Below the pieces are notes generated by a model. That model searched no databases. It saw only the letters and a list, made by a program, of their open reading frames with translations, and had not been told where the DNA came from. Positions 5,654 to 28,750 of a DNA stretch of 64,000 nt are shown here, in pieces. The first letter of the stretch is position 1. Each line of letters begins with the position of its first letter. The translations under genes were made by a program, and so were the position numbers. This DNA comes from Nitrospirota bacterium (GTDB lineage Bacteria; Nitrospirota; UBA9217): positions 96,001-160,000 of the forward strand of contig CAWFSF010000005.1 of assembly GCA_963818475.1 (NCBI GenBank), given 5' to 3'.

Positions 5654-5707
5654 GTTATACCACAGAATTGTTACAGGATTGTTACAAGTTGATTAAGCTT
5701 TTGTTAA
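5654..5707 (-). promoter_or_regulatory. Pho-box promoter (pstS)
   Basis: Half-sites (+ strand text) gttac 5670, gttac 5681, attaa 5692, gttaa 5703; TATAAC 10 nt downstream on minus strand. Confidence 0.85.
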
Positions 5708-8564: not shown

Positions 8565-8618
8565 ACTATACCCACACTCTGTTACAGGAGTATGAAGCCT
8601 GGGTTAAATGTTGGTTAC
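8565..8618 (-). promoter_or_regulatory. Pho-box promoter (kinase operon)
   Basis: gttac 8581, atgaa 8592, gttaa 8603, gttac 8614; TATAGT 10 nt downstream. Confidence 0.8.
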
Positions 8619-8649: not shown

Positions 8650-9892
8650 TTAAGCAACGCGGGTGCGAATGCTGTCCGTGATACGATAGCTCCAAGACCA
8701 GATACCGGTCTCCGGGCAGGGTGACAACCGGGAATCCTGCCCGATCACATACCGGTTCCCCCGCCAGACCACGGTCGAGCTCAAAAGCGGCACGAACCAC
8801 AGCGCTCCGATGATCAGGTCCTTGACCGGCACCAGGAAATACCGGAGGGGCGATTGCCGGTGAGCACAGGTGCGTCCTGCTGCCGATTCGATCATGCTCC
8901 CGAGAAGGAGGTCGCCCAGGACCTTGATGAGTCCGATGACCAGCCGCGAAAGAAAGCGTTTCGCGCGACGGGCCCGTGAGCAGGACCGGCAATGCAGCCA
9001 TGAACACCGGGTTCACGAGCAGTTCGGATATATATTTCGCTCCGCCGATCTTCCACCTGAGCTTGCCCCATCGGGTGTGGCGGTTCATGAACCGCTTGAT
9101 GTCCCAGTACTCGTTGACGTTGCTGATCAAATGGTTCGACAGCACGACCTTTTTGCCGCTCTTGTTCATTTCCCTGCCGATGATGAAATCCTCGGCCAGA
9201 ATGTCCTTGAAAGCGGAAAGGCCTCCCAGCGCCTCAAGATCCGTCTTTTTCATGAGCATTGACTTCCCGATAACGCAGGGCATGCCCAGGGCCTGGTCGA
9301 GGAAACTGACGCTTCCCATGATGAAAGAATTGAGATGGAGGTTTTCCAGCGTGGCGCCGAGGCTCCGTCCGCCAACCCCGTGGATGAGGTTGCTGACCAG
9401 TCCGACCGAGGGGTCCGCTGTCTGCCGCACAATCTCACGCAAATAGCTCTTGCCTACTATCACATTGCTGTCGCTGATGAGGATGTAAGGATGCTGGGCT
9501 TTCTGGTAGGCCGGTATGAGGTTGTTCACTTTCGGGTTGTGTCCGGCATGACACTTCTCGACAACGAGGGAGATGTTCCGGTCTGAGTACTTCTCCTGTA
9601 CCTTTTTTGCTACTTTGTAGGCCGGATCGTTGAGGTCCTGCAGGCAGAAAATAACTTCGTAGGTCGGGTAATCCTGGGTGCAGAAGCTTGCGAGGTTGTC
9701 GAACAAGTTGTCGTCAAGTCCCTTGAGGGGTTTCAGGATCGACACCGGCGGGGTATGGTCCATTGTATACGCTGTTGTCCGGGCTTCCGGTTTCGCCTTC
9801 TTTCTCAAAAGTGCATAGGTTGCTCCAACCTGGAGCAGGTAGAGAATGATCCCTATCATTGAGATCGCAGCACATATGAGAAATATGGTCAT
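8650..9892 (-). CDS. Ceramide glucosyltransferase/HpnI-like glycosyltransferase (GT21), frameshifted near 8945
   Basis: SILKPLKG, NPKVNNL, ISDSN, LAEDF and RHTRW motifs; C-terminal VVWRG in ORF 8650-8895. Confidence 0.85.
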
Positions 9893-9939
9893 GTGTCTCC
9901 TCCTTGAGAATTCTTATTGGTCGTTATATTCTTCATCGT

Positions 9940-10641
9940 TCAATTCCTGAAGAGCGTGATCGCGACACCCTTGTTGTGGCGAATGCAGTTCTTTACGGAT
10001 TCAACGTTCTTATCGCAGTTCAACAGTGTTTTCCATGAGTACAGGTGTCGTGCCTTGTGAAAATCGCTGTTGGCAATGTAGGGATATTTTTTCAGGCTGA
10101 TCACGTTGAACACGTCGTCCCTGTTCGCGATCTCCCAGGCATCGATGTATTTTGCGTATTTGTCACGGTTGTTCCAGAGATAGAGCGTATCCTTGTTTAC
10201 GAGTCCCGGTGTATGGTGAGGGTGGCAGGCAACGGTCAGGACATCCTGGCGCTTTGCTTCGAGAAAAATGTCCTCGTAACTCATGCAGGCGGGAATAAAC
10301 TCCTTGATATCGAGGAGCAGGAGATGAGCTGACTCGTCTTTCGATATATAATTTTTGCTGATTTCAACTCCGGGGATTACGAGCATGCCGTATTTTTCCC
10401 AGGCCCGAGCGGACTCCTGCCTGAGCGTATCGAGGTACTCGTCAAAGTTGTCCCCCCGGACCGAGAGATTGAACTGGCGGGCGAACTTGCCCATCGTGTT
10501 GTCGCCGTTGACGACATGGTCCGTGATCGCGATCGCGTCAAACCCGGCCTGGCCGAAGAGATCGATCGTTTTTCCCATTTCCAGCGAGCCGTCCGAAAAC
10601 GTAGTGTGAATATGGAAGTCGCATAACATCATGGTCGGCAT
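9940..10641 (-). CDS. PHP-domain phosphoesterase
   Basis: DFHIHT..SDG, ITDH, GVE, CHPH and NSDFH metal motifs; true start may be Met at 10632/10629. Confidence 0.88.
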   Translation of the reverse strand: MPTMMLCDFHIHTTFSDGSLEMGKTIDLFGQAGFDAIAITDHVVNGDNTMGKFARQFNLSVRGDNFDEYLDTLRQESARAWEKYGMLVIPGVEISKNYISKDESAHLLLLDIKEFIPACMSYEDIFLEAKRQDVLTVACHPHHTPGLVNKDTLYLWNNRDKYAKYIDAWEIANRDDVFNVISLKKYPYIANSDFHKARHLYSWKTLLNCDKNVESVKNCIRHNKGVAITLFRN

Positions 10642-10693
10642 GGTACCGGATAATTGTTACCCCAGCATTACAATGTCGTGAAGTTTGCGTTAA
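10640..10693 (-). promoter_or_regulatory. Pho-box promoter (PHP-GT21 operon)
   Basis: gttac 10656, attac 10667, gtgaa 10678, gttaa 10689; TACCAT 10 nt downstream. Confidence 0.8.
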
Positions 10694-10714
10694 TTCTTCC
10701 CTGGTCGGGATCGC

Positions 10715-10990
10715 TCATGCGGCCTCCTGAGCGGCGGCTATCCTTCTCCCGGACACCAGCCTGTCTTGCGGACGTTTGCATTCGAGCACCAGCTTTTTAA
10801 CGATCTGATCTATGTCCTCGGGCCTGACGCGCTGCTCGGGAGTCATGGAAAAGACCGCTTTTTTCATTCGAGTCTCGTACGTTTCGCCGCCCTCGATAAC
10901 GTCGTGATCGACGATGGTTACGTTGACCGGTTCGGTAAAATAGATATCAGCAACGACGCCGCTTTCGATCTTGATGATGATGTGGTTCAT
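10715..10990 (-). CDS. Hypothetical 91-aa protein, copy A
   Basis: RBS GGAGG; 61/91 identical by hand alignment to 21529-21804. Confidence 0.85.
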   Translation of the reverse strand: MNHIIIKIESGVVADIYFTEPVNVTIVDHDVIEGGETYETRMKKAVFSMTPEQRVRPEDIDQIVKKLVLECKRPQDRLVSGRRIAAAQEAA

Positions 10991-11083
10991 TTCTGCCTCC
11001 TGGGCCGCCTATTTCGCCACTCCACCGCTCTTCCTTACGGGACATCCCATGGTGGTGCAGAAGCGTTTATCCGTTATTGAGCG

Positions 11084-11137
11084 ATGATACAGGAGAGGTA
11101 TTACAGGAGCGTGAAATAACCGTAAAAGTTCGGTTAA
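11084..11137 (-). promoter_or_regulatory. Pho-box promoter (91-aa copy A)
   Basis: attac 11100, gtgaa 11111, gtaaa 11122, gttaa 11133; TATCAT 10 nt downstream. Confidence 0.78.
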
Positions 11138-11240
11138 GTTATCGACCGGATCCGGATCAAACAGGCTGCTCCGTTGCAACGCTTGGGAGGCAGGCGAAGA
11201 GGTTGCAACGACAGGGAGCGCTACTTCGGGACCGGCGTAT

Positions 11241-11339
11241 TTACGTTCCATGAATGATAAGAACAATAAAACCGATCGCGAGGACCAGCCCTGCTGCAGT
11301 CAGTCCGTATTCTATTGTTTTCAGGATCTTCTTATTCAT
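11241..11339 (-). CDS. 32-aa small membrane protein (not in ORF track)
   Basis: GGAGG RBS; MNKKILKTIEYGLTAAGLVLAIGFIVLIIHGT; paralog at 21413-21493. Confidence 0.7.
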   Translation of the reverse strand: MNKKILKTIEYGLTAAGLVLAIGFIVLIIHGT

Positions 11340-11422
11340 GCGGCATTTCCTCCACACCTTCATCGCTTTTCTGCGCCTTCCCTCATCGTGGGGCCGTGCA
11401 GCATAGTGCAGGCCACACGGTA

Positions 11423-11653
11423 TCAGCGCTTTTGCGTCAAACGTTCCTTAACACACTTGCTCACCAGAATGGGAAGGAAGGACTTCACTGTGCAGTCCTT
11501 TCCCAGTTCTTCCAGGAGTTCCCGGTACATTCTGTTGACCTCTTCCGCCGAAATGCCGAGTTCGTGCACGAGTCTGTCTATGGCGCGGACGTGAAGATCG
11601 TTGTCCTTGTCGTAGCTGTACCGTGCAGGGTCCGTTAGTGTGTGGTTCGCCAT
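11423..11653 (-). CDS. DUF3562-like small helical protein
   Basis: AIDRLVHELGIS.EEV...CTVKSFLPILV pattern; RBS AAGGAGG. Confidence 0.7.
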   Translation of the reverse strand: MANHTLTDPARYSYDKDNDLHVRAIDRLVHELGISAEEVNRMYRELLEELGKDCTVKSFLPILVSKCVKERLTQKR

Positions 11654-11708
11654 GGCAGTACCTCCTTCATGCTTTATAACGGGCCGCGAATACGCGCGTA
11701 GTGAGTCG

Positions 11709-11762
11709 ATACTACATGCCGGCCGTTACAGGAACATGACGATCTGGTGAAGTTTCTATTAA
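11709..11762 (-). promoter_or_regulatory. Pho-box promoter (DUF3562-sORF unit)
   Basis: gttac 11725, atgac 11736, gtgaa 11747, attaa 11758; TAGTAT 10 nt downstream. Confidence 0.8.
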
Positions 11763-11778
11763 ATTTGCATGTTCCCTT

Positions 11779-12023
11779 CAGGACCCGCGCCCTTAAAAGA
11801 AAGTCCGGGTGCTCCGCCAGAAGGGCCTCGTACTTCTCCACCGTGATCTTGTCGCCCGCATTGGCGTACCGGATCGCCTGATATGCCGCGAAGGCCTTCT
11901 CCTGCGGCGTCAGTTGCGCAAGAAAGGCCGGTTTCTGCCGGTAATAGGGGCCTGCCGGGGGTCTGCATAATCATCGAGGAATATACGGTTCCATGTGATC
12001 GCCTTCTTGAGATCGACGAGTTT
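11779..12023 (-). pseudogene. Internal fragment of a second copy of the TPR-like membrane protein gene
   Basis: Translates (one frameshift) LVDLKKAITWNRIFLDDYADPRQ..PQEKAFAAYQAIRYANAGDKITVEKYEALLAEHPDFLL, matching LVDLKKAMKWY..PQEQAFADYQAIRFSNAGDKAVVERYEALLARRPDFLL in 15242-16147; no start or C-terminus. Confidence 0.85.
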
Positions 12024-12079
12024 GATTTCGGGGGGATGCCAAAGCAGTGCCAGGACAAGCAACGGAATGAACTTAAACG

Positions 12080-13099
12080 TTACCATGACGCCTTCCTCGG
12101 AGGGGCGGTTGCCGGATTAGCCAGGTAATTGGCGGTGAAAATATACTCACACAAGGCCTGCTTGAACGTCCCCCCTTCGCTCGTTCGCCCGGCAGCCTGA
12201 TCTGAAAGATATTTATTGAGCGCGGCAAGGAAGTTCTGATCGTTTATGCCGCCTTGAATTTTTACCAACGGCGCAACGACAAGGGGAAAATCGACCATCT
12301 CCTTTCCCGTCCCGAGTGCCAATCTCGCCTCCCATGCCCCTTCGCCCGGCAACACCGTGATGACCCAGCTTTTTTCGTCTACCTTCTGCACCGAAACGAG
12401 TTTCGCGTCCAACAGTGCGATATCGGGTGAATGATTCCCCTCGGCCTGCAGTTGCAGCCTGATCACGACCGGAGTTTTCCCGTCGGAAAGGGCAATGGCC
12501 GGATCCTGCGCTATCCTCTTCCCGTCATTGCGTTTAAAAAGGGCGGAAAAAGTCTGCAATCCCTTCTCTCCCTTGAATTCCCTGAATCGCTGCAGAACGC
12601 TCTTTTCCCGCTCATCGAAACTGATCAGCTTTGCCGCACCCGGCACTCTCGAGGCCGGTTCACCGCGGGGCTCGTCCGACGGGCCCGGCGGCGGGGAGTA
12701 GGTCAGGGCAGGGACGGGGAAGCTTTTCCCCGTTGTGTCCCTGACGGTTGCAGTTACCTGATTGATGACCCCGGGCAAATCTCCTTTTTTTTCGAACCTC
12801 AGATCGAGCTCGAAGGCCGCATCGGGATTTTCCCGGAACACATTGACAAGCAGCGTCCCCGGAGTATTTGCGTAAACATTAGTGAGGGTGCCTCCGTTCG
12901 CCGTCACCCGGGGATGCGCCAGGGAAGTCGTGTCGTAATCGATCGTTATGTCCATGGCTTCCACGCCGATGATATTATCACCCTCGATAAAAAACGCACC
13001 ATCGCCGTTGGGCGTGACAAGCATCTGCATCGCGGCAAAAGACCCGGCCGGGCAGAGAAGGACGAGCAACAGACCCATGATGCACACGGTGTTTCTCAT
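12080..13099 (-). CDS. Secreted protein with cohesin-like N-terminal domain
   Basis: Signal peptide; GVEAMDITIDYD cohesin-like strand; Pro-rich linker; YIFTANYL C-terminus, recalled from Geobacter-type cohesin proteins. Confidence 0.55.
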   Translation of the reverse strand: MRNTVCIMGLLLVLLCPAGSFAAMQMLVTPNGDGAFFIEGDNIIGVEAMDITIDYDTTSLAHPRVTANGGTLTNVYANTPGTLLVNVFRENPDAAFELDLRFEKKGDLPGVINQVTATVRDTTGKSFPVPALTYSPPPGPSDEPRGEPASRVPGAAKLISFDEREKSVLQRFREFKGEKGLQTFSALFKRNDGKRIAQDPAIALSDGKTPVVIRLQLQAEGNHSPDIALLDAKLVSVQKVDEKSWVITVLPGEGAWEARLALGTGKEMVDFPLVVAPLVKIQGGINDQNFLAALNKYLSDQAAGRTSEGGTFKQALCEYIFTANYLANPATAPPRKASW

Positions 13100-13152
13100 C
13101 GCCTTTTCCCCTCGTTCATGACCCCAAAATGAATATGCTGCACGGGAGCGCG

Positions 13153-13767
13153 TCAGGGCTCGATTGCCGGTTTACTGTTGCTTTCACCCGGCAATGATAC
13201 GAGCCCTGCTTCCTTTGACATCAGGAACACCATCAACCCAAAGATTATGAAGAGAAAGCTCAGCAGGGTGATCGGCGGCAGCCCGCCGTTCCATTTCCGG
13301 ACCTGCAACCAGCCGTCCCAGCCCATGGCGAAAAGATGGCCTGCGACCAGGGCGTACACAGCGGCTGTCGTGGTTCTCCATTCCGCCGGCTTCAGGACGC
13401 AGGCATTCAGGCGCCAGATGCAATAAGCCGCCATCGCCCCGAAGAGGACCGTCGCCTCTCCAGTCAGGCTCATCTTGCCATTGTCGAAGAATTTATCAAA
13501 ATAGCTTTTTGAAAGAATCGAAAGCGATAAAAGGACATGAACGAAGACCAGGTTCGTGCAAGCTCGGCTCCAGAAAGCGGTAACTTCCCGCCGGCTGCGC
13601 AGGAGAGACATGGCTGCAATGAGCAGCGATACCGCCGCCGTCATGGAGAGGGCCTTGTTCAGAACATAAACCGGCACATGGATGAGTGAAACACCGCCGA
13701 ACCCGCAATATCGTACAACGGCATACATCGTTGTGGAAAACGCTACCAGTAATAATTGATTTACCAT
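13153..13767 (-). CDS. Membrane protein, ferric-reductase/STEAP-like heme-b transmembrane domain
   Basis: ~6 hydrophobic helices; LNKALS, VFVHVLLSL, VAGHLFAMGWDGW and GLPP; two intramembrane His. Confidence 0.55.
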   Translation of the reverse strand: MVNQLLLVAFSTTMYAVVRYCGFGGVSLIHVPVYVLNKALSMTAAVSLLIAAMSLLRSRREVTAFWSRACTNLVFVHVLLSLSILSKSYFDKFFDNGKMSLTGEATVLFGAMAAYCIWRLNACVLKPAEWRTTTAAVYALVAGHLFAMGWDGWLQVRKWNGGLPPITLLSFLFIIFGLMVFLMSKEAGLVSLPGESNSKPAIEP

Positions 13768-13821
13768 ACGTTATCGTTCCTTCTCTTCTCGCCCATTTAT
13801 CGGGTAGTTTTTCAATTTATT

Positions 13822-14967
13822 TCAAATCCCCCCGAACGGGCACTCCGGATCGGAAGCGGAGAAGTCGCCTCCCACGAACCCGGCCACGGCGCGGCACCCC
13901 CCCTTGCAGATTTCGAGATAGTCGCACGATCGGCAGGGCTCCGGCGCACGGTCAGTCCAGGTACGCAAGCGCGAAAGATGTTCCGAGCTGCTCCAGAGTC
14001 GGGGCAGCTCGAAAACGCTCTCCTCACCGGACAAGAAGGAGCAGCCCGCAAACCTGCCGTCCGAGCGGACCCCCAGAAGGACGTTGCCGGCCTCGCAGCC
14101 GTATACCGAGAACTGCTCCATCATCTTCTTGTCCGGCCGGTGCCAGCAGAACATCGGGACAAAGGAACAGTCGATTTTGGCCGGGACCCCGCAATCTAGG
14201 GAGAGGCGTCTGAGCATCGGATAGAATTCCCGGTTCTGGGCCGGAGTCAATCGCCGTTCGAAATAATTCTGTCTCCCCCTGCCCGAGGGTTTGAGGCGCA
14301 GAAGCTCCACATCGGAGAGCCCCCGTTCCCGGGCAAAGGTGAACAACTCGTGAAGGTGAGCGAAGCTCTGCCTGGTCACGACGCAGTTCAGGCCGACGTT
14401 GACGCCCGCCTCCAGAAGCATATCCACTCCGCGCATTGCCGCTGCGAAAGAAGCGGGACTCCGGCCGGCTTTCCCGTCACCCGCCGTGGCGTCGATGCTG
14501 ACGTTTACCTGGCCGAACATGCGGCATTGTGCGGCATATTCTCTGGACATCAAGACGCCGTTCGTGGTCAGGTTGGGGACGATGCCGCGGCTGCGCACAT
14601 AGGCGGCCAGTTCAAAGAAATCGGAGCGCTCCAGCGCCTCTCCGCCGCCCAGGGCCATATGGAACACCCCCATGCCGGCCAGCAGATCGACGGCCTTGCG
14701 AAACTCTTCAGCCGTCAGCTCGCCCGTGTCCGTTTTTCCCGAATCCATATAGCAGTGGCCGCATTGCTGGGAACAGGCGTTGGTCACTGAAAAATGGACC
14801 TCCAGCGGGGCGGAAAGAACACGGGTTTCCGGCCCTTCCCACAGCGGGCTGTGCTCGTGGCCCAGGCTCCGCATGAATTCCCGGTCCACGTGCACCAGCG
14901 TCGGGGGATTTTCCAATGACAGTATCCCCCCGAACGTCTCTAAGCGATGTTTCATGACGCCCATCAT
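13822..14967 (-). CDS. Radical SAM protein with SPASM domain
   Basis: CSQQCGHC motif, GGGEAL; SPASM CEAG...GC...CRSCDYLEICKGGC...DPEC. Confidence 0.93.
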   Translation of the reverse strand: MMGVMKHRLETFGGILSLENPPTLVHVDREFMRSLGHEHSPLWEGPETRVLSAPLEVHFSVTNACSQQCGHCYMDSGKTDTGELTAEEFRKAVDLLAGMGVFHMALGGGEALERSDFFELAAYVRSRGIVPNLTTNGVLMSREYAAQCRMFGQVNVSIDATAGDGKAGRSPASFAAAMRGVDMLLEAGVNVGLNCVVTRQSFAHLHELFTFARERGLSDVELLRLKPSGRGRQNYFERRLTPAQNREFYPMLRRLSLDCGVPAKIDCSFVPMFCWHRPDKKMMEQFSVYGCEAGNVLLGVRSDGRFAGCSFLSGEESVFELPRLWSSSEHLSRLRTWTDRAPEPCRSCDYLEICKGGCRAVAGFVGGDFSASDPECPFGGI

Positions 14968-14991
14968 TGCTCCTTCTGGCCATGTATCCGA

Positions 14992-15189
14992 TCATCGGCC
15001 GTTCACTTTTTTTTGCGCCTCTTCCAGTCGCCCGTCCTCTTGAGCTTTGGCCGCAACGGCAATCGCCGCGACAGTGTTAAAGAGGACCGTGGCTGCCGCT
15101 CCCGCGGTGAAGAAGACGATTATATCTGCGCCGACGCTGCTGGAGTTCGGATTGTAGCCGGTTTTGATCTTCAGGATGCGTCCTCTCAT
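14992..15189 (-). CDS. 65-aa peptide with GYNPNSSS motif, candidate rSAM substrate
   Basis: MRGRILKIKTGYNPNSSSVG followed by a hydrophobic helix and a charged tail; 25 bp upstream of rSAM; purine-rich RBS. Confidence 0.75.
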   Translation of the reverse strand: MRGRILKIKTGYNPNSSSVGADIIVFFTAGAAATVLFNTVAAIAVAAKAQEDGRLEEAQKKVNGR

Positions 15190-15241
15190 TTTTCTTGCCT
15201 TCCTTGTCCGGATTTATTGCGCGCTGCCCCGGCTCTCACGT

Positions 15242-16365
15242 TCAATTGATCTTTTCACCTGACACGGGTTTCTGGACTGCTTGCGGATTTTGTCCTGTTT
15301 CGAACCAGCCGCGGTACTTGACGGCAAAATCGTCCATGATCTTGGGGCCGTTCGGCTGGTATATAAAGAACAGGTAGAGCACCGCCGTCGTCATCAACAC
15401 AGTAAGGAGAGGACTGAGCCAAAGCAGCGCGCGCCGCCGTGTCTGCCAGAAGTTCCCACTGGTCAAAAGCAGCAGCCAGAAGAGGACCGGCAGGTTGATG
15501 ACGGCCGCGATGTAGACCACGGAGTCCGGAAAGCGAAATTGATCGGCTGAACTGTCGATGGCATAGAAGGACGGTATTCTTGAGGCGGCCAGGAGGAGCC
15601 AAAGACAACTGACTATCATGAAGGTTTTGAGCGAGGCCCGGGTCATCCCCTCCCAGGGCTTCATCAAAAGGGCCGCGGCCCAAAGGACCGCGACGACTCC
15701 CCAGGCAACGCCTGCCCAGACCGTTGTCATCCGCCAGTGGCGGCGGGCCTTCGCATGAGCCAGCCGATCGCTTTCGGTCACGTCTTTACCGCCGCGTTGA
15801 ACAAGGTACTGAAAGGCGAGATAGCTTTGCCCGCGCTTGTCCAGGCGGTCATAGGCCTGGCCCAGCTCCCGTTGGACCTCGGCCTTCAAAAGAAAATCGG
15901 GGCGCCTGGCCAGCAGCGCCTCGTACCTTTCCACAACAGCCTTGTCTCCCGCATTGGAGAACCGGATGGCCTGGTAGTCCGCGAAGGCCTGCTCCTGGGG
16001 CAGGAGTGCCGCGAGCAGGGAAATTTTGTCTCGGTAGACAATCGCCTGACGCGCGTCGGCATATTCATCCCTGTATACCCCGTACCATTTCATGGCCTTC
16101 TTGAGGTCGACAAGGTTGTTTTCATAAAGGTTCCCCAGCATCTGCACGGCATACCGGCGCGCGTTGCTTCCCCGGTGCTTGTCGCTATTTCCAGATTGAC
16201 GGTTTCGGCGTCGGCATAGCGGCCTTGGACAAAGTCCTGTTGGGCTTTCTTCTGCAAATCATCCGCCAAGGTACTCGCCGGTGATGCCGGGGCGACGAGG
16301 GGCAGACAAAGCAGACCAGCGAAAAATGCCAAGACGAGCAGAGGAGTGTATTTTAGTTTCGGCAT
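15242..16365 (-). CDS. Exported TPR-like protein with C-terminal transmembrane helices (frameshift near 16160)
   Basis: Signal peptide in ORF 16090-16383; TPR-like helices; ~4 TM helices at the C-terminus. Confidence 0.7.
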
Positions 16366-16399
16366 GTCATTCAGGGGTATCATCTTTATCCTCGCCGGA

Positions 16400-16453
16400 A
16401 TATTACTCTATTTCTGTTACGGGGATATTACGTCGATATTATATTTGTGTTAA
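16400..16453 (-). promoter_or_regulatory. Pho-box promoter (rSAM operon)
   Basis: gttac 16416, attac 16427, attat 16438, gttaa 16449; TAATAT 10 nt downstream. Confidence 0.8.
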
Positions 16454-16507
16454 AGCTGTTTTCACGCACGAAGCCGGTTGGCAAAACGATGAGGTGGCTT
16501 CATCCGG

Positions 16508-17867
16508 CTAAGACGAGATCAGCCGCAAGTTGAACAACCGCTCGATTAGCCATGTAAAGCCCAGCATGAAAATAGCCAGCGACACTCCAAAGGTCACTTT
16601 TCTGAATTCCATTTTACTTTTAAGCAGGTACAGGACCGGCAACAGTACCAGGAAAATCATCAGTTGTCCGACTTCCACACCCAGGTTGAAGGAGACTACC
16701 GATACCAGCAGGTTCGATTTTCCGACGATCAACTCCTGGAGAACGCTTGCGAAACCGAAGCCGTGGATCAGCCCGAAACCGAACGTCACGAGCCAGCGGT
16801 AATTAACTTTTTTCTTGAACAGGTTTTCAAGCGCGACAAAGCAAATGGAAAAGGCTATGACCGATTCCACAATCCGGGAATTCAAGCTGACGACCTGCAT
16901 CGCCGCCAGGAGCAGGGTAATGCTGTGCGCTACCGTAAATGCGGTGATTATCTTCAAGACTTCCTTGATTGACAGCCCGATCACGATGAGCGCCAGGAGA
17001 AATGCCATGTGGTCGTAGCCGGTCAGAATATGTTCGATGCCGAGCAGGATGAATTGACCGATAGAGGTCCACACCGGATGGCCCGCCGGACTGCGCCGGA
17101 CACTTTGTTGTGCAACAGGCGCGCCGGGGTTGTTCAGGACCTGCTTGATGCGCTCCGGATCGGTGCGTACTGCCTCTTTTCCTTGAGCGGCTGCGCTCAT
17201 TGGCTTCCCGGCTGTTGCGTGTACGGCCGCACTATCCTTTCGATTTTGCGTTGCCCGCTCTTCGTCGTCTTCGGCCCCGGGACTGCCGGCCACAGGGCCC
17301 TGAATGGTAAATTCCCAGACACGGACAGTGTTCTCGAAAAAGGTACTGTCGTTCAGGCTGCGAAAAATCCAGGACCTTTTGAAGGTCCGCACCGACGGCA
17401 TCCGTCAAATAGAAAAACGCAAGGTTGACGTGCTGGTTGTCCGTTTCATCGAACAGCATGCGATACTCGATTTTGACCTGGTTTGGGCTGTTGTGGAAGC
17501 CGATGTTTTCCGCCGCAAGCCATATTTGAAAATAGTTATTCTCATTTCTGGTAAGTTTCGTGACTTTTAGGGGATATGTCGTCCCGTTGACGGAGAGGGA
17601 CAGTTTGTCATTCACACAGGGCTGAAGCGCGGAAGCGGCGATGTTTGGGAGCTGTTCAGGGGAAAGAGCTTCGGGATTGTAACCAGCTTCCTTGACCCCT
17701 TTGATGTCGCCGAATAAAAGCGGGTTGAACTCCATGATGGCGGTGAGGCTGTTTTTTCCGAAACACCACCGGGAGCCCCCCATGGGCATGTTGTGAGCGG
17801 ACACCGGGACAGCTATGAAAAGAAACAGGATCAGGAAGATGAATGATAAAGGTTTTCTGAATGGCAT
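16508..17867 (-). CDS. HupE/UreJ family protein with periplasmic N-terminal domain (frameshift near 17345)
   Basis: Signal ending SAH; GIEHILTGYDH, FTVAHSITL, GLIHGFGFA and FNLGVEVGQ motifs. Confidence 0.88.
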
Positions 17868-17912
17868 AATCGTCAAAACCCCCCGGCTGCCTTTTGATGA
17901 ATGCAAAGGAAA

Positions 17913-18010: not shown

Positions 18011-20759
18011 CTACTGGTACGTTATAACAAGCTTCGGCGCTTTGGTCGCCGACACGTCGTACGCCCTGGCGGTCCGCTTGCCGGTGCCGGTGACGATGAA
18101 GGCCATGGCGTTGTTCTGCGCCCAGCCCGTACGGTTCACGATTTCCTGGACGATCGTCTTCAGGTCCGGGGTCCGCTGGTCCGCGCCCGCGGCGTCCACG
18201 GTGTTCCAGGCAACCGGGCTCCAGGCTACGGAGGCGGTCGTTTTGGCACGGGAGGAGACGTTGTAGGCCGCCGTGGTGAAGGTGGCCGCATTGTCCGCGG
18301 CCTGGCCCTTGATGGTCAGGCTCGTGGCGGTGGAGCCGGTCTCGTCCACGGTGAACTGGATGTAGGCATTGGTGATGGTCTTGCCCTTCGGCACGTTCAC
18401 ATTGGTGAAGCGCATGCCGACGTACTGGTTGCCGGTCGTGGAGGAGTCATAGACCAGTTCCAGGTCGCTGCTGTTGTTGTACATCGTGCCGCCGGTCTGG
18501 CGCTCTTCCACGTCGTCATTGCTTGTGTTCACCTGGGAGTTTACGGTGACGGGCGTGGAAGCGCTGGGCGTGGCGGACGCCTGGTTGGAGTTGCCGCTTT
18601 CACCGTTGGCGTTCACGGCGGACACGACATAGTAATAGGTCGTACCGTTGGTCAGGCCGGTGTTGACATAGGTCACGGCGGTCACGCCGGTGGCCACGGT
18701 CGTGTAAGGTCCGCCGCTCACGGTGGCGCGCTTGACGCTGTAGCTCGTTGCGCCGGAGGACGCGGTCCAGGAAAGGCTGACCTGTCCGTTGCCCGCGGTC
18801 GCGGCGAGGCCCGTGGGGGCAACCGGTGGGGCAGGCGCGGTCGGCGTGGCCGAGGCCTGGTTGGAGTTGCCGCTCTCGCCGTTGGCGTTCACGGCGGTCA
18901 CGACGTAGTAATAGGTCGTGCCGTTCGTGAGGCCCGTGTTCGTGACGTTCGTCGAGGTCACGCCCGCCGCCACGGTCGTGTACGGCCCGCCGCTCACGGT
19001 GCTGCGTTTTACGTTGTAGCTCGTTGCGCCGAAGGAGGCAGTTCCAGGAAAGGTTCACCTGGGCATTGCCCGCAGTCGCGGTGAGGCCCGTGGGAGCCGC
19101 GGGAACGGACGCGCCGTGGGTCACGGTAATCGTATCGACCACCGTGCCGTCGGTCTTTTTGGCTTTCATGGTCATGGTGTTGCCGTTGATGTCGAAGGAG
19201 CAATAGCTCAATCCGCTGTAGCCCGCAACAACGTTGGGCTGCCCCATATCGACGGCATAGAGCGGCGCGCCGCCGCCGCCGTCGGTGATGTGCGGAATAT
19301 TATTTACCATGGCGCGGACATAGTTGTGGTTGTGGCCCGTCAGGACCATATCGACCCCGTACTGGAGAACGAGGGGCTGGATGACGTTCTGGACCGTGGT
19401 GTTGTTGGCGTGGGTGCCCGCGGCCCAGCCCGGCTCGTGGATCAGGATGATCTTCCAGGGCTTGGTCGTCGTGGCGAGATCGTTGACGAGCCAGTTGTAC
19501 TGCGCGGTGCCGGAGGTGTAGCCGCCGCCCGTGTACTGGTCTACCACGCTCACGTGGAGCGGGCCGTAATCAAAGGACCAATAGGCGCCTGCCGTATACG
19601 GGTAAGGATAGTACTTCGCATAGTAGGTGCCGGTGCCCTCGTGGTTGCCCTTGACCCCGTTGATGGGGGTCTCGGCCAAAAGTGCGCGGGTCTGCGGGTT
19701 CGCGTTGAACCACTCAGACGTCCAGGCGGATTCGGCGTCGCTCGAGACCCAGTCCCCGACCTGCAGGGTCAGGCTCTGGAACGCGGGGTCCGTTGCGTAT
19801 TCCGCGCGCATCCGGTTAATGACCTGTTCCATGCTCGCCGGGTTGGACCGGGTGTCGCCGAAGGCGAGGAACTTCACCGCCGTTGCGCTTGCGGCCGGCG
19901 CGGCCACGAACGAGCCCGTGCCGTAGACGGTCCCGCCCGCGGTGGCTGATACCTGGTAGTAATACTTGGTGGAAGGCGTTAAGCCCGTGATGGCGTACTT
20001 GTGCTGGTGGCTGGAGCCGTACTCCGCCACGTTGGCGCTGCCCATGGTGTAATTCGTGTCCTGGTCCACCACGGTGAAGTGGACCGGGCCGTAGTCAAAG
20101 GACCAGTAGAAGTTGGCTGCATAGGGATAGGGATAGTACTTCTTATAATATGTGCCGGTCCCTTCGTGGTTGCCCTTGACGCCGTTGATGGGGGTTTCGG
20201 CAAACAGAGCACGCGTCTGCGGGTTCGCATTGAACCACTCCGCGGTCCAGGCGGATTCGGCGTCACTCGAAACCCAGTCTCCGGCCTGCAGGACAAGGCC
20301 CTGGTATGCGGGGTCCGAAGCGTATTCCGCGCGCATCTTCGTGACCACTTTTTCCATGTCCGACGGTGTGGAGCGGGTATCCCCGAAGGCGAGGAACTTC
20401 ACAGCCGTGGCCGTGGCTGCCGGAGCGGTAACAAACGACCCGGAGCCGTACACGGTCCCGCCTGCGGTGGAGATAACCTGGTAATAATACTTGGTATCCG
20501 GCTGTAGGCCGGTGATGGCGTACTTGTGCTGGTTGCTGGTGCCGTACTCCGCGACGTTCGCGCTTCCCAGGCTGTAGCTGGTGTCCGTGCCCCACTTGAT
20601 CACGTTCGTTTCCGTCGCGTTGTCCTGCCAGAGCACGGTCATTGCCGCGTTCGTGTTTTCATAGATCAGGTAAGGCACTTTGGTTATGCCGGCAAAGGCC
20701 GCCGTAGTGCATAACAAAAAGACCAGTAAAACTCCGATGCTTCTTTTTAGTACATTCAT
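18011..20759 (-). CDS. Secreted calcineurin-like/purple-acid-phosphatase-type metallophosphoesterase with a duplicated module, two FN3 repeats and a C-terminal beta domain (frameshift near 19040)
   Basis: Signal peptide; GDTR, GDWV and GNHE each twice; IHEP and GHNH once; two APTGL.ATAGN.QV.LSW FN3 repeats; SNDDVEE..SSDLEL domain. Confidence 0.88.
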
Positions 20760-20913
20760 AATTCCTCCTTTTTCAGGTCGTTGCGACCCGGAATGAGAGA
20801 AGTTGCATGCAGCGACCTCTCCTGCTTCAAAATCTGACTGCAAAGAAATGTGAGAAGCACCTCCTTTTCTGGCCATCCGATTTCGCCGACGCGTGGCTGC
20901 GTTATTCATGATT

Positions 20914-21200
20914 GTGTGCGACGCTTCGCTTTTGGTCGGACCATTCGGGGCCGTTCGGCTTCTTATGGCAGTCTGATTCAGCTCTTGCGGGCTTAGTCCT
21001 CGCCAAGCCCTGGACCCTGCCGGGATATTCTTGTAGCAGGCTGTGCAATCGGTCTTGACTTCATGCACGTGATGAGCGTGATAAAAGACTACCTTGCCGT
21101 TTTTGGCGGGAACTCCCTGTGATCACCGGCAGCTTCAGCAAAGAAAGCGCCCGAAAATGTCGCTATGCCGCGATCACCACAATAAATCCGGGAAGCACTA
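20914..21200 (-). pseudogene. Decayed triheme cytochrome c7 (PpcA-like) gene
   Basis: Multi-frame translation gives signal peptide, FPAKNGKVVFYHAHH, DCTACY, GED*ARKS*IDCHKK and GPTKSEASH; in-frame stops and heme-motif substitutions. Confidence 0.7.
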
Positions 21201-26068: not shown

Positions 26069-27806
26069 TCAACCTTCAACCTTGATTTTTACCTTCGTGC
26101 CCTTTTCCGGCCAGCTCTCGATCTGCATCTCCCAGGCGTGGGCCTTTACCAGGTGCTTGACGATGGCCAGGCCGAGGCCGGTGCCGCCCATCTTCCGTGA
26201 TCGTGCTGTATCCACGCGGTAAAACCGTTCCCCAATGCGCGGCAGATGTTTTTCCGGGATCCCGACGCCGCTGTCTTCGACGTACAGACAGGGTTTGCCG
26301 TTCTCTATGCGAAAGCCGATCGTCACGCCGCCTGTTTCCGTGAATTTTATTGCATTATCGACGAGGTTCGTGAGTATCTGGATCAGCTTGTCCCGATCAG
26401 CAAAGAGCTTGATATGTTCCGCGGGGAAATCGGTTTTCAGATACAGCTTCTTTTCAGCAGCCTTGGGCCTCAGCAGCACGAGAACATGTTCGGTCGCATC
26501 GGAGAGATCCACCTCAGTTCGCTCTATTCTGGCGACGCCGAGTTCGATCTTGGAGATCGTCATCAGGTCGTCCACCAGGCTGTTGATCCGTTCGCTGTTC
26601 GCCTTGATGATCTTCAGGAATTTCTCGGCGTGCTCCGTATCATGCAAGGCGCCTTCCAGCAGGGTTTCGGAAAACCCCTTGATCGCGGTTATGGGCGTCT
26701 TTATCTCGTGCGATATGTTCGCCACAAAATCCTTGCGGGTCTGCTCCAGCTTCTTGAGCTGCGTGATGTCATGCAAGATGACGACAAAACCGGACAGGTC
26801 CTTTTCCACGTCGGTGAGCGGCGAAACCCTCGCGGAAAAATATCGTTCCTCCGGATGATCAAGCCGCAGTTCGCCGACGCCGGGCGTAAGGTTCTTGCGC
26901 GCTTCTTCCATGAGCGAGAGGAATAAGGGGTTACGGATGACCTCGAACACCTGTTTCCCCATCACTTCGCCGAAATAATGCCGTGATGCGGAGCTTGCCA
27001 GCTGGATCGCGCCGTTCGATTCGAGTATCATAAGAACATCGGGAATGCTTCGCAGGATCTCGTTGAGCCGTTTTCTTTCTCCTTCGTTCACAGCAATACT
27101 GTTTTGCAGCTCCGCCGACATCGTATTCAGACTTTCGGCTATCTCGTCAAACTCCCCGGCACGGTCAAGATACAGTTTCTTCCCGATCAGGCCGCCCGCA
27201 AGAGAACGCGAGAAATCCCCGATCTGCTTCGTCAGTCTTCTGATGCGCTCCAGCTGTCCGATTGAGAACAGGCCCGTCGCAAGCAGGATCGCGATGACGA
27301 CCGCGATGATCTTGAACCTGAGGGCGTTGATCGAGGCATTTACCTGTTTAAGCTGCATGCTGAGCCGGACAATTCCAACGGGAAGGCCTGCACGCGTTAT
27401 CCGCTTCGCAACATAGAGCAGGTCGTCGTGCAGGGTATCGCTGTAGCGGGTAGACATGCCCGTGCCGTACAGGAGGGACTGCTGGATCTCAGGGCGGGCC
27501 GCGTGATTGTCCATAAGGGATGATTCCGTGTCTGAGTCCCCGAGAACCCGTCCGTCGAGGTCGATTACGGTCACCCGGAGACCGGTCTGCTCCTTGAATT
27601 GCTTTGCAGAGACTGTCGAGAGGGGGTTGGGCATCGAACGGTATGTCATTGGAAATGAGTGTTGCCTGAGAAAGGAGGTGCTCCCGAAGATCATTGATAT
27701 GGCTGCTTCGCACGGTATCGGTAATAAAGAATTCGACAAGCACGATCGTAACAAGCATCATGACAGCATACAGTATGACGATCCGCCCGAAGAGGTGTTG
27801 TTTCAT
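26069..27806 (-). CDS. phoR: Phosphate regulon sensor kinase (frameshift near 27620)
   Basis: TM-MDNH..RPE periplasmic domain-HAMP-PAS; RKDFVANISHEIKTP; ERFYRVDTARSRKMGGTGLGL. Confidence 0.9.
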
Positions 27807-28498
27807 ACGTCTCCATCCACATAGTACCCTACTCCTCGACGGGTCTTTATGTAGACCGGATCGGAAGGATCGTCTTCGATCTGGGTCCGGAGTCTCCGGA
27901 TGTGGACATCGACGGTCCTAGGTTCGATGAAGGCCTCCCCCTTCCAGACGGCATCGACCAGCTGTTCACGACTGAACACCTTGCCTTTTCTAATAACCAG
28001 ATATACCAGCAGTTTGAACTCGGTCGCGCTAAGCTCCAGCGGGGTTTTGCCCTTGATAACGCCGTGGGTCTCGAGGTTGATGAGCAAATTGCCGATGCTG
28101 ATTGATTTTTCCGTTGTTGGTTTTTCTCCTGTCCTTCTTAAAACGGCTTTTATGCGCGCAATAAGCTCTCTCGAACTGAACGGCTTTGTCATATAATCAT
28201 CGGCGCCGCTTTCCAGTCCTATGACCCTGTCCACCTCTTCGCCTTTCGCGGTAAGCATGATAATGGGAGTATTGGCAGTTTTGGCATCGTTCCTGATGAT
28301 ACGGCACAGTTCCACCCCCTGTATGCCGGGGAGCATGAGATCGAGGACCACGAGATCGAACCGGTCCTTTCTGATCTTATGGAGAGCTGCTTCGCCGTCG
28401 GTTGCCGTCGTGACCCTGAAGCCGTCCTTTTTCAGATTGTACGACACGAGGTCAACAATATCCGGTTCATCGTCAACGATCAGTATTTTATCATTCAT
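27803..28498 (-). CDS. phoB: Phosphate regulon response regulator
   Basis: OmpR family REC plus wHTH (RTVDVHIRRLR); coupled to phoR; pst context. Confidence 0.9.
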   Translation of the reverse strand: MNDKILIVDDEPDIVDLVSYNLKKDGFRVTTATDGEAALHKIRKDRFDLVVLDLMLPGIQGVELCRIIRNDAKTANTPIIMLTAKGEEVDRVIGLESGADDYMTKPFSSRELIARIKAVLRRTGEKPTTEKSISIGNLLINLETHGVIKGKTPLELSATEFKLLVYLVIRKGKVFSREQLVDAVWKGEAFIEPRTVDVHIRRLRTQIEDDPSDPVYIKTRRGVGYYVDGDV

Positions 28499-28750
28499 GG
28501 GCGTAGTTATACCATTTACCATTACGAGAATTCAAGAGGAGCGAAAAGATTTAACAGAACCGTAACATTCGTCAAAATGGGGATTTTGCCGGAGCGTATA
28601 GGACTGCCAGGGTACTGTAGGGATAGGAGCGAGGGCTGACGAGAAAAACATGATTGGGCGGTGTTACGTTTATGTCACGCCGAGACCGGAGGAACGATGT
28701 AAAAAAGCTTCCATGCAGTTCACTTGGAAGTTGTGCGGTTATTGTTAATA

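What the first reader, a model, noticed from the sequence alone, without database searches (positions are those of the whole stretch)
12080..16453. Pho-regulated radical SAM/SPASM operon with a GYNPNSSS peptide, TPR-like protein, STEAP-like heme protein and cohesin-like protein
Seen: one Pho-box promoter (16400-16453) precedes five closely spaced co-oriented genes. They encode an exported TPR-like membrane protein, a 65-aa peptide (MRGRILKIKTGYNPNSSSVG plus one hydrophobic helix), an rSAM enzyme with complete CxxxCxxC and SPASM cysteines, a ~6-TM protein with two intramembrane His, and a secreted cohesin-like protein. Known: SPASM enzymes typically modify an adjacent peptide or protein. The motif recalls the K-I-R-x-G-F-V-S-N-S-S-S N-termini seen near rSAM genes, for which I know of no characterised chemistry. 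Inference: this is an undescribed post-translational modification system acting on a membrane-anchored peptide during phosphate starvation. No protease or exporter is present, so the product may be a membrane-retained cofactor or modified subunit rather than a secreted RiPP.
Basis: partly seen in the sequence, partly recalled or inferred. Interest (0 to 1): 0.9.

Follow-up and report, generated by a model that had tools for sequence, protein, structure and literature searches.

The report
Phosphate-starvation radical SAM peptide cassette
A small membrane-anchored peptide with an almost invariant GYNPNSSS motif sits beside an uncharacterised radical SAM enzyme in an operon that carries the same promoter boxes as the phosphate-uptake genes, and this pairing recurs in many bacterial phyla without having been described.

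Summary
The operon is real. On the minus strand, 12080-16453, lie a TPR/multi-pass membrane gene (split by one frameshift here), a 65-aa peptide, an rSAM/SPASM enzyme, a STEAP-fold 6-TM protein and a secreted protein.

- **Regulation.** Four 11-bp-spaced hexamers (16415-16453) precede the operon. In the 4.66-Mb genome the only equal match is the pstS promoter, 11 kb away in the same window. The window also holds pstSCAB-phoU and a PhoB/PhoR-like pair.
- **Peptide.** The family has 541 clusters at 50% identity. L6, K9, G11, N13-P14-N15-S16-S17-S18 and G20 are invariant in 40 diverse members.
- **Co-occurrence.** In 401 genomes of the phylum, the same 8 carry the rSAM ortholog and the peptide; 7 of those 8 pairs are adjacent.
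- **Conserved core.** In 49 loci from many phyla the core is peptide + rSAM + TPR-membrane protein + a PAP-type metallophosphoesterase. The STEAP-like and cohesin-like genes are accessory (9 and 6 of 49).
- **Family.** The rSAM is below every NCBIfam cut-off; the nearest are MftC and PqqE.
- **Binding.** A complex model places the peptide's N-terminus in the enzyme's cavity (0.78, best control 0.00).

Verdict: an undescribed, probably Pho-regulated peptide-modifying system. The modification itself is not shown and its chemistry is unknown.

The parts
16415..16453 (-). Pho-type box: four hexamers at 11-bp spacing (TTAACA, ATAATA, GTAATA, GTAACA), ending 32 bp before the ATG at 16383. Weaker flanking units extend it to 16404-16464.
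   Evidence: One of only 2 sites in the genome scoring 22 of 24 or more; the other is the pstS promoter. Best non-self hit of a pstS-derived pattern. Similar boxes lie 35-70 bp before the TPR gene in 13 related loci.
15242..16383 (-). Gene for a signal/anchor + TPR-like periplasmic domain + 4-helix membrane domain. Split here by a frameshift near 16186-16200.
   Evidence: Intact at 372-375 aa in L013-L015. AF2 model of the ortholog has pLDDT 83.8. Residues about 42-226 align to TPR proteins (best E 3.3e-3, Z 10-11). In 35 of 49 loci by clustering.
14992..15189 (-). 65-aa peptide: basic N-terminus, invariant GYNPNSSS-x-G, one hydrophobic helix, variable charged tail.
   Evidence: Third-codon-position bias of differences is 72/70/270. 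Single copy in the genome.
13822..14967 (-). Radical SAM/SPASM enzyme, 381 aa, with a conserved about 50-aa N-terminal extension.
   Evidence: Pfam PF04055, 8.8e-17. Below all NCBIfam cut-offs shown; best is MftC at 174.2 bits against a cut-off of 265. Invariant C65/C69/C72 and SPASM Cys. Nearest solved structure is PqqE 6c8v, 8.5e-25.
13153..13767 (-). 6-helix membrane protein of STEAP / ferric-reductase fold, probably binding heme b. Accessory.
   Evidence: Invariant H30, H77, H144. AF2 pLDDT 79.2. Foldseek: STEAP1 8ucd_B, E 6.3e-4, TM 0.70. No Pfam hit. In 9 of 49 loci.
12080..13099 (-). Secreted 339-aa protein, possibly with a cohesin-like N-terminal domain. Accessory.
   Evidence: Signal-peptide-like N-terminus. 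Homologs in 6 of 49 loci, all labelled Geobacter-type. Atlas lead to Cohesin. No Pfam, NCBIfam or meaningful PDB match.
11782..12116 (-). Remnant of a second TPR-membrane gene (matches ortholog residues 75-178, with an internal frame change).
   Evidence: tblastn with the L019 ortholog.
16508..17906 (-). Exported unknown domain fused to a HupE_UreJ_2 permease domain. Split here by a frameshift near 17292-17344.
   Evidence: Pfam PF13795, 6.8e-47, on the intact ortholog. In 28 of 49 loci. In relatives it lies downstream of the 6-TM gene.
18011..21068 (-). PAP-type metallophosphoesterase (Pur_ac_phosph_N + Metallophos, internally duplicated). It continues after a frameshift near 18990 into FN3 domains.
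   Evidence: Homolog in 41 of 49 peptide loci. Canonical GDxR / GDW / GNH(D/E) / H / GHxH motifs in the near type. Box-like sites at 21253-21291 and 21864-21902.
5669..5707 (-). pstS promoter box (TTAACA, TTAATC, GTAACA, GTAACA), the reference for the Pho reading.
   Evidence: pstS, pstC/A, pstB and phoU lie at 979-5637.
26069..28522 (-). PhoR/PnpS-like kinase (26069-27754) and the genome's best PhoB-like regulator (27803-28522).
   Evidence: PhoB model 273.7 bits against a cut-off of 296.2. PnpS 365 against 400.

Best explanation
This is a phosphate-starvation (Pho-type) operon that encodes a peptide-maturation pair.

1. The cytoplasmic rSAM/SPASM enzyme binds the basic N-terminal strand (ILKIK) of a single-pass membrane peptide through its own N-terminal extension.
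2. It threads the invariant G-Y-N-P-N-S-S-S segment into its active-site cavity and modifies it by radical chemistry.
3. The product stays in the membrane, because no protease or exporter is present.
4. There it probably acts as a small modified subunit, together with the TPR/multi-pass membrane protein and the exported PAP-type metallophosphoesterase that accompany it in nearly all loci.
5. Metal import (HupE fusion, TonB-dependent receptors) and periplasm-directed electron conduits serve as accessories. The conduit is the STEAP-fold heme protein here, and CcdA/TlpA-like or c7-type cytochrome modules elsewhere.

Shown: gene content, conservation, co-occurrence and the promoter box shared with pstS. 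Modelled: binding. Inferred: the modification, its site, membrane retention, and the link to phosphoester hydrolysis.
For: Pho link:
- The box at 16415-16453 and the pstS box are the only 2 sites scoring 22 of 24 or more in the genome; 0 in 5 shuffles.
- With the pstS-only pattern this box ranks first after pstS itself.
- Of 11 positions scoring 20 of 24 or more in the genome, 10 lie in this window, before pstS, a kinase gene, a PHP phosphoesterase, this operon, the metallophosphoesterase and a rhodanese gene. Shuffles give 1-3.
- Boxes lie before the TPR gene in 13 related loci and before pstS in L037.
- pstSCAB-phoU and PhoB/PhoR-like genes are in the window.

Pairing:
- rSAM ortholog and peptide occur in the same 4 of 41 relatives.
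- They occur in the same 8 of 401 genomes of the phylum. 7 of the 8 pairs lie within 35 bp and 1 lies 4.1 kb apart.
- The rSAM is in 42 of 49 peptide loci.

Peptide:
- 209 clusters at 90% identity and 541 at 50% identity.
- Invariant L6, K9, G11, N13-S18 and G20 in 40 of 40.
- The differences show a coding signature.

Binding model:
- Score 0.78, best of 3 controls 0.00.
- The mark was reached by 58 of 80 solved complexes and by 2 of 110 mismatched pairs. These counts hold only roughly, because my own alignments were used.
- The runs agree in at least 39% of contacts. The partner's pLDDT is at least 44.
- Peptide residues 4-10 pair with enzyme residues 23-28. Peptide residues 1-26 touch barrel and SPASM residues, many of them invariant.

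Enzyme class: complete cysteine sets, and the nearest relatives are the peptide-modifying MftC, PqqE, SkfB and SuiB-type entries.

No protease or exporter is among the conserved families.
Against: - No modification has been observed.
- The complex score is a model's confidence. Solved rSAM-peptide complexes exist (recalled), so the pass may come from likeness. The partner's own fold is uncertain (pLDDT under 50 in two of three runs).
- The conserved part is a short motif plus a membrane helix, unlike the variable cores of most RiPPs.
- Tyr12, an obvious radical target, is Val in 1 of 40.
- The Pho boxes were found only in the nearer (Nitrospirota / Geobacter / Syntrophobacter-type) loci. In the distant phyla one chance-level site was seen, and no pst genes were seen next to the cassette.
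- The TPR, HupE and metallophosphoesterase genes are frameshifted in this assembly, so the system could be inactive here.
- In 2 loci with ample flanks (L053, L063) no rSAM lies nearby.
Confidence: 0.55

Rival explanations
1. The peptide is not a substrate. It is a membrane tether or regulatory subunit that docks the rSAM at the membrane. The enzyme's true substrate is something else: the metallophosphoesterase precursor before export (as anaerobic sulfatase-maturating enzymes treat their hydrolases), a lipid or a small molecule.
For: The metallophosphoesterase is nearly as constant a neighbour as the rSAM (41 against 42 of 49 loci). The peptide's helix and motif are conserved like those of a structural subunit. 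anSME is among the solved relatives (7.2e-11). A glycosyltransferase/PHP pair for possible lipid remodelling lies nearby.
Against: The model places the invariant motif inside the catalytic cavity, not on the surface. The enzyme is much closer to MftC and PqqE than to anSME. No (C/S)xPxR-type motif was looked for or seen in the phosphoesterase.
Confidence: 0.2
2. A conventional secreted RiPP natural product: the peptide is cut and exported by unlinked housekeeping functions.
For: rSAM/SPASM next to a short peptide is the usual RiPP layout.
Against: No protease or ABC exporter is among the conserved neighbours in 49 loci. The motif is N-terminal and followed by a conserved hydrophobic helix. It is invariant across phyla rather than diversified.
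Confidence: 0.05
3. The repeated hexamers bind an OmpR-family regulator that answers a signal other than phosphate, for example metal limitation. The operon would then belong to a metal-uptake regulon.
For: HupE-family permease, TonB-dependent receptors and ExbB/ExbD/TonB genes are common neighbours. Two further kinase / response-regulator genes lie at 5765-8575.
Against: The best match to the box in the whole genome is the pstS promoter. In L037 the same box precedes pstS. The neighbours that carry boxes are phosphoesterases and a porin.
Confidence: 0.1
4. In this particular genome the cassette is decaying: the frameshifts in the TPR, HupE-fusion and metallophosphoesterase genes are real.
For: Three cassette genes are split. 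A remnant of a second TPR gene and a changed gene order show past rearrangement.
Against: pstS and a porin gene are split in the same way within 25 kb, which suits assembly indels better than five independent pseudogenes. The peptide, rSAM and 6-TM genes are intact.
Confidence: 0.15

Closest known systems
Mycofactocin maturase MftC with MftA (TIGR03962)
   Same: Best-scoring curated family (174.2 bits, E 3.9e-51, aligned over residues 49-379). It is an rSAM/SPASM enzyme acting on a short peptide that contains Tyr to make a retained cofactor rather than an antibiotic (function recalled).
   Different: The score is below the cut-off of 265. MftC acts on a C-terminal Val-Tyr of a soluble peptide with a separate MftB chaperone (recalled). 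Here the conserved motif is N-terminal, membrane-anchored, and carries no conserved C-terminus.
PqqE with PqqA (TIGR02109; PDB 6c8v)
   Same: Nearest solved structure by profile (8.5e-25, aligned over profile positions 45-377). It is a SPASM enzyme that cross-links residues of a small peptide on the way to a redox cofactor (recalled).
   Different: 95.9 bits against a cut-off of 381. No PqqB, PqqC or PqqD-type genes are among the neighbours. The peptide motif is unrelated.
QhpD/QhpC of quinohemoprotein amine dehydrogenase (recalled, not tested here)
   Same: Precedent for an rSAM/SPASM enzyme that modifies a small protein which then serves as a permanent enzyme subunit rather than a free product.
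   Different: QhpC is exported with a dedicated peptidase/transporter and cross-linked through cysteines (recalled). This peptide has no conserved Cys, and no such transporter is linked.
STEAP / ferric-reductase-domain heme proteins
   Same: The 6-TM protein superposes on STEAP1, STEAP2 and STEAP4 (E 6.3e-4 to 2.4e-2, TM 0.68-0.71). It has invariant His on helices 3 and 5, the positions of the heme ligands in that fold (recalled).
   Different: No Pfam match at E 0.01 or better. No reductase domain. Present in only 9 of 49 loci.
Pho regulon promoters (PhoB/PhoP boxes)
   Same: Direct repeats at one-helical-turn spacing just upstream of the -10 region, shared with the pstS promoter of the same genome. 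TT(A/T/C)ACA-type hexamers resemble the Bacillus PhoP repeat (recalled).
   Different: The regulator has not been tested. The PhoB-like protein scores just under the curated cut-off.

Membership tests
Radical SAM / SPASM superfamily | CxxxCxxC cluster motif in a radical SAM core | tested here: met
   C65, C69 and C72 are invariant in 32 of 32. Pfam PF04055, 62.2 bits against a cut-off of 29.5.
Radical SAM / SPASM superfamily | C-terminal cysteine set for two auxiliary clusters | tested here: met
   C267, C291, C309, C345, C348, C354, C358 and C376 are invariant, and C274 nearly so. Full-length alignments to SPASM families.
Mycofactocin maturase MftC (TIGR03962) | Score above the curated cut-off of 265 bits | tested here: not met
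   174.2 bits.
PqqE (TIGR02109) | Score above the curated cut-off of 381.35 bits | tested here: not met
   95.9 bits.
GeoRSP system rSAM (TIGR04303) | Score above the curated cut-off of 400 bits | tested here: not met
   125.8 bits.
RiPP-type maturation system | Short peptide gene constantly linked to the modifying enzyme | tested here: met
   The same 8 of 401 genomes hold both. 42 of 49 loci hold both.
RiPP-type maturation system | Enzyme binds the peptide | tested here: inconclusive
   Model only: 0.78, best control 0.00, partner pLDDT at least 44.
RiPP-type maturation system | Peptide carries a post-translational modification | not testable with these tools
   Needs mass spectrometry.
RiPP-type maturation system | Leader protease and/or exporter in the cluster | tested here: not met
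   None among the conserved neighbour families of 49 loci.
Pho regulon | Promoter box of the same type as the pstS promoter of the same genome | tested here: met
Pho regulon | Induction at low phosphate through PhoB | not testable with these tools
   No RNA run holds the stretch.
STEAP / ferric-reductase transmembrane domain | Six-helix fold with His pair on helices 3 and 5 | tested here: met
STEAP / ferric-reductase transmembrane domain | Sequence match to the Pfam family | tested here: not met
   No Pfam family at E 0.01 or better.
Cohesin domain (PF00963) | Match to the Pfam model | tested here: not met
   No Pfam hit. The only support is an Atlas lead of 0.92 to clusters with Cohesin on 37-50% of members.
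TPR proteins | TPR-type helical repeat fold | tested here: met
   Ortholog model residues 42-226: Foldseek probability 1.00 but best E 3.3e-3; VIA Z 10-11, a range that is common for helical repeats. Pfam TPR_2 is below its cut-off in a distant member.
HupE/UreJ_2 (PF13795) | Match to the Pfam model | tested here: met
   159.5 bits on the intact ortholog. The window copy aligns at 63% identity but is frameshifted.

The most novel reading that the evidence does not exclude
The rSAM, whose nearest relatives make mycofactocin and PQQ, converts the invariant G-Y-N-P-N-S-S-S segment into a peptide-derived cofactor. That cofactor is never released: it remains on a membrane helix as a subunit of a phosphate-starvation metallophosphoesterase complex. 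It works with the periplasm-directed electron conduits that recur beside it (STEAP-fold heme protein, CcdA/TlpA-like modules, c7-type cytochrome). This would be a new class of membrane-tethered protein-derived cofactor, and a previously unknown requirement for phosphate scavenging in anaerobes.
Probability: 0.12. Interest if true: 0.95.

Novelty: new variant of a known kind. Interest (0 to 1): 0.78.

Why it matters
rSAM/SPASM enzymes paired with peptides have given PQQ, mycofactocin and many new cross-link chemistries. This is a large family (541 clusters at 50% identity) found in many phyla. Its recognition motif is sharply defined and unreported, its substrate is membrane-anchored, and a physiological cue can be named. 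It gives enzymologists a clean target: an 8-residue invariant core. It also gives microbial physiologists an unexplained component of the phosphate-starvation response of anaerobes (Nitrospirota, Geobacter relatives, Syntrophobacter, Acidobacteriota, Planctomycetota, Bacteroidota), always beside a secreted metallophosphoesterase. One cultured carrier, Geomesophilobacter sediminis Red875 (locus L046), makes the question testable.

Tried and rejected
Tools and searches that gave nothing:
- ESM Atlas on the peptide gave no usable hit.
- NCBIfam at E up to 1 gave only chance-level rows for two distant peptides, the TPR protein, the HupE fusion, the 6-TM protein and F13. It gave nothing for the window peptide, the cohesin-like protein or F14.
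- A PDB profile search with the cohesin-like family gave only adenovirus fiber rows at E 0.008-0.13, taken as chance.
- Foldseek with the TPR-protein model gave no match at E 0.001 or better. The VIA wide search covered only residues 42-226, so the membrane half remains unmatched and was not folded alone.
- The look-up of sequencing runs listed one DNA run with a share of 0.05 and no RNA holder. I did not lay reads, so the frameshifts were not checked against reads.

- I looked for other NSSS-type N-termini in the whole genome and beside the more distant rSAM homologs (L005-L012). Only the peptide itself was found, plus one stop-interrupted, non-coding match to the looser pattern in L008.

Readings considered and rejected:
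- Membership in MftC, PqqE or GeoRSP was rejected on curated cut-offs.
- A secreted RiPP was considered and ranked low.
- A role of reductants in activating a di-iron purple acid phosphatase was considered. The linked enzyme has GDW in place of the GDxxY motif whose Tyr gives such enzymes their colour (motif meaning recalled), so I keep this as speculation only.

Papers:
- Five full-text searches were run. The motif strings gave 0 papers. SPASM / phosphate starvation / metallophosphoesterase gave 0. Pho regulon / radical SAM / purple acid phosphatase gave 1, an unrelated Toxoplasma paper. SPASM / precursor peptide / transmembrane helix gave 1, a general RiPP review. radical SAM / PhoB / Geobacter gave 0.
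- Only the search listings were seen. No paper or supplement was read.

Full report
**What is in the sequence.**
On the minus strand between 16383 and 12080 lie five co-oriented reading units with gaps of 24-54 bp:
- a TPR-like membrane protein (16383-15242)
- a 65-aa peptide (15189-14992)
- an rSAM/SPASM enzyme (14967-13822)
- a 204-aa six-helix membrane protein (13767-13153)
- a 339-aa protein with a signal-peptide-like start (13099-12080)

The first gene is not open in one frame. Two ORFs overlap and the frame changes near 16186-16200. Three relatives have one ORF of 372-375 aa.

The same kind of break is seen in the upstream HupE-fusion gene (near 17292-17344), the metallophosphoesterase gene (near 18990), pstS and a porin gene. 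Five split conserved genes in 25 kb of a 7-contig genome (91% complete, 6.2% contaminated) suit assembly indels better than five pseudogenes. I could not check reads.

A remnant of a second TPR gene lies at 11782-12116.

**The promoter.**
Ahead of the operon, at 16415-16453, are four hexamers at 11-bp spacing: TTAACA, ATAATA, GTAATA, GTAACA.
- The pstS gene, 11 kb away in the same window, is preceded by TTAACA, TTAATC, GTAACA, GTAACA (5669-5707).
- Scanning both strands of all 4.66 Mb for [GT]TAA[CT]A x4 at this spacing, only these two sites reach 22 of 24 or more. Five local shuffles gave 0. That pattern was drawn from both sites.
- I therefore repeated the scan with [GT]TAACA, drawn from pstS alone. 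Three sites reach 20 or more: pstS (22), this operon (21), and a site before a kinase gene at 8580-8618 (20). Shuffles gave 0-1.
- At 20 of 24 or more with the broader pattern, 10 of 11 positions in the genome lie in this window. All are on the minus strand, before pstS, the kinase gene, a PHP phosphoesterase, this operon, the metallophosphoesterase (two sites) and a rhodanese gene. Shuffles gave 1-3.
- Similar boxes lie 35-70 bp before the TPR gene in 13 related loci, and before a PstS gene in L037.
- The window also holds pstB and phoU above their curated cut-offs, the genome's best PhoB-like regulator (273.7 bits against 296.2) and a PhoR/PnpS-like kinase.

The Pho reading is therefore well founded computationally. 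Expression has not been seen.

**The peptide.**
- It has 209 relatives at 90% clustering, every name shown being 'hypothetical protein' apart from one JGI record called ribosomal protein L21, from Geobacter-, Nitrospirota-, Thermodesulfovibrionales- and Syntrophobacter-labelled records.
- It has 541 representatives at 50% clustering (296 at E 1e-10 or better). Of the 150 listed, 149 are 61-135 aa long and one is 331 aa.
- In 32 near members the whole N-terminus and helix are almost fixed.
- In 40 members chosen across phyla, L6, K9, G11, N13, P14, N15, S16, S17, S18 and G20 are invariant. G3 and Y12 are nearly so, with Val replacing Tyr once. The helix and tail diverge.
- Differences from 15 orthologs fall 72/70/270 on codon positions 1/2/3, so the ORF is read as protein.
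- The N-terminal flank is more basic than the tail (+3 against +1 by my count). That suits a cytoplasmic N-terminus within reach of the enzyme.
- No Pfam or NCBIfam model matches, and no paper in the library holds the motif.

**The enzyme.**
- It has the CxxxCxxC motif and a full SPASM cysteine set, invariant in 32 orthologs.
- It scores below the curated cut-off of each of the 25 best NCBIfam families shown, of 60 matched. The best are MftC (174.2 against 265), then NirJ2, AhbD, GeoRSP and PqqE.
- The nearest solved structures by profile are PqqE, SkfB and the 5v1q entry.
- A conserved N-terminal extension of about 50 residues (R8, F12-G14, P21-P22, L24, V27-D28, W43) precedes the core.

**Linkage.**
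- Among 41 relatives, orthologs (E 1e-200 or better) occur in 4 genomes. The next best match in the other genomes is 4e-39. The peptide occurs in the same 4.
- Among 401 genomes of the phylum, the rSAM (E 1e-80 or better) and the peptide (E 1e-3 or better) occur in the same 8. They are within 35 bp in 7 and 4.1 kb apart in 1.
- A scan of one genome per species found 49 peptide loci in records labelled Geobacteraceae, Nitrospirota, Syntrophobacter, Acidobacteriota, Myxococcales, Planctomycetota, Bacteroidota, Kiritimatiellae, Fibrobacterota and Raymondbacteria.
- The rSAM is within the fetched flanks in 42 of the 49. Of the 7 without it, 5 end at or near a contig end, and 2 (L053, L063) have ample flanks.

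**The conserved neighbourhood.**

| Neighbour | Loci of 49 | Source |
|---|---|---|
| PAP-type metallophosphoesterase (Pur_ac_phosph_N + Metallophos) | 41 (39 at E 1e-10 or better) | |
| TPR-membrane protein | 35 (by clustering) | |
| HupE_UreJ_2 fusion | 28 | |
| STEAP-like protein | 9 | |
| Cohesin-like protein | 6 | |

- In the nearer loci the order is: pentapeptide-repeat protein, phosphoesterase, (PEP-CTERM-like protein), TPR, peptide, rSAM, (6-TM), HupE fusion. TonB-dependent receptors and ExbB/ExbD/TonB often follow.
- In the distant phyla the order is: a PAP_N+TPR+membrane protein, an unknown protein, peptide A, a TlpA/redoxin-like protein, a phosphoesterase fused to a CcdA/DsbD-like membrane domain (seen by eye, not scored), peptide B, TPR-membrane protein, rSAM, and an unknown protein.
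- Two loci have a c7-type cytochrome before the phosphoesterase.
- In this window the HupE fusion and the phosphoesterase lie directly upstream of the operon.
- The near-type phosphoesterase keeps the canonical metal-binding motifs. The distant type has GDND in place of GNH(D/E), and a single His in the last motif.

**Structure-based checks.**
- The 6-TM protein (AF2 from 10 sequences, pLDDT 79.2) matches STEAP1, STEAP2 and STEAP4 (E 6.3e-4 to 2.4e-2, TM 0.68-0.71) and then NADPH oxidases. Its invariant H77 and H144 sit on helices 3 and 5. Heme binding is inferred.
- The TPR protein's ortholog (pLDDT 83.8) aligns to TPR proteins over residues 42-226 only. Its alignment has no invariant polar residue in the membrane half, which argues for a scaffold rather than an enzyme.
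- The complex model of rSAM with peptide residues 1-40 scored 0.78, with best control 0.00. The mark was reached by 58 of 80 solved complexes and by 2 of 110 mismatched pairs. The runs agree in at least 39% of contacts, and the partner's pLDDT is at least 44.
- The most confident contacts pair peptide residues 4-10 with enzyme residues 23-28, a strand addition to the N-terminal extension. Peptide residues 1-26 touch residues 55-58, 103-105, 130-134, 151-155, 190-194, 219-223, 262-270 and 309-311, many of them invariant.
- This supports binding but does not show it. Likeness to solved rSAM-peptide complexes (recalled) may help the score.

**How it most likely works.**
Under phosphate limitation the PhoB-like regulator binds the boxes and switches on the operon, along with pst, the phosphoesterases and a porin (inferred from shared boxes). 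The peptide inserts in the membrane with its N-terminus inside. The rSAM captures the ILKIK strand and modifies the NPNSSS segment or the neighbouring Tyr (modelled and inferred). The product remains in the membrane and works with the TPR-membrane protein and the exported phosphoesterase, with metal import and periplasm-directed electron conduits as helpers (inferred from co-occurrence). The chemistry is open. There is no Cys, so a thioether link is excluded. A C-C or ether cross-link, an oxidation of Ser, or an epimerisation all fit known SPASM chemistry (recalled).

**Comparison and novelty.**
The system works like the MftC/MftA and PqqE/PqqA pairs and, as a modified-subunit precedent, QhpD/QhpC (recalled). 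It is a member of none of them. The five literature searches found nothing on it (listings only, no supplements seen). I rate it a new variant of a known kind: a large, sharply defined, unannotated family with an unusual membrane-tethered substrate and a nameable physiological cue.

Noticed in passing
window 979-28522: The first 28 kb form a phosphate island, all on the minus strand. It holds phoU, pstB, pstA/C and pstS, two kinase / response-regulator genes, an HpnI-like glycosyltransferase with a PHP phosphoesterase (a conserved pair, possibly lipid remodelling), the cassette, a metallophosphoesterase, a GH1 glycosidase, a porin, a YfcE-type phosphodiesterase, and PhoR/PhoB-like genes. Box-like repeats precede at least seven of these genes.
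   Followed up: partly
window 4608-5637; 2650-3400; 23694-24969; 16186-16200; 17292-17344; about 18990: Many conserved genes (pstS, probably pstA, the porin, TPR, HupE fusion, phosphoesterase) are split by single frame changes. This suggests indel errors in the assembly rather than decay.
   Followed up: partly
window 18600-21068: The metallophosphoesterase ORF contains an internal tandem duplication: the PAP N-terminal domain plus the first half of the catalytic domain appear twice.
   Followed up: no
window 11782-12116: A fragment of a second TPR-membrane gene lies downstream of the cohesin-like gene. Together with the HupE fusion lying upstream instead of downstream, it shows that the cassette was rearranged relative to G016, G019 and G006.
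   Followed up: partly
L014 (G019) about 9000-13000: In one relative a TonB-dependent receptor with ExbB/ExbD/TonB-like genes is inserted between the peptide and the rSAM. This is the only one of 8 genomes where the pair is not adjacent.
   Followed up: no
L045, L047, L048, L049, L052, L055, L058, L059, L061, L062: Distant phyla carry two peptide paralogs per locus. One lies before the redoxin/phosphoesterase genes (KTGYNPNSSS, helix starting IP.FL) and one before the TPR/rSAM genes (KQGYNPNSSSMGSI). In L058 the second has Val in place of Tyr.
   Followed up: partly
window 16508-17906 and orthologs (L013 5111-6502): The exported domain fused to HupE begins, after the predicted signal peptide, with His (…VSA|HN…). 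A free N-terminal His could be a metal ligand. The domain of about 200 aa has no Pfam match.
   Followed up: no
window 58033-58082: A box-like repeat (20 of 24) lies 21 bp before a rhodanese-domain gene (57368-58012), far from the phosphate island.
   Followed up: no
window 29091-30224: An ISNCY-family transposase gene borders the phosphate island.
   Followed up: no
L025 7988-8647 and family F7 (10 loci): A secreted protein with a PEP-CTERM-like C-terminal sorting signal often sits between the phosphoesterase and the TPR gene.
   Followed up: no
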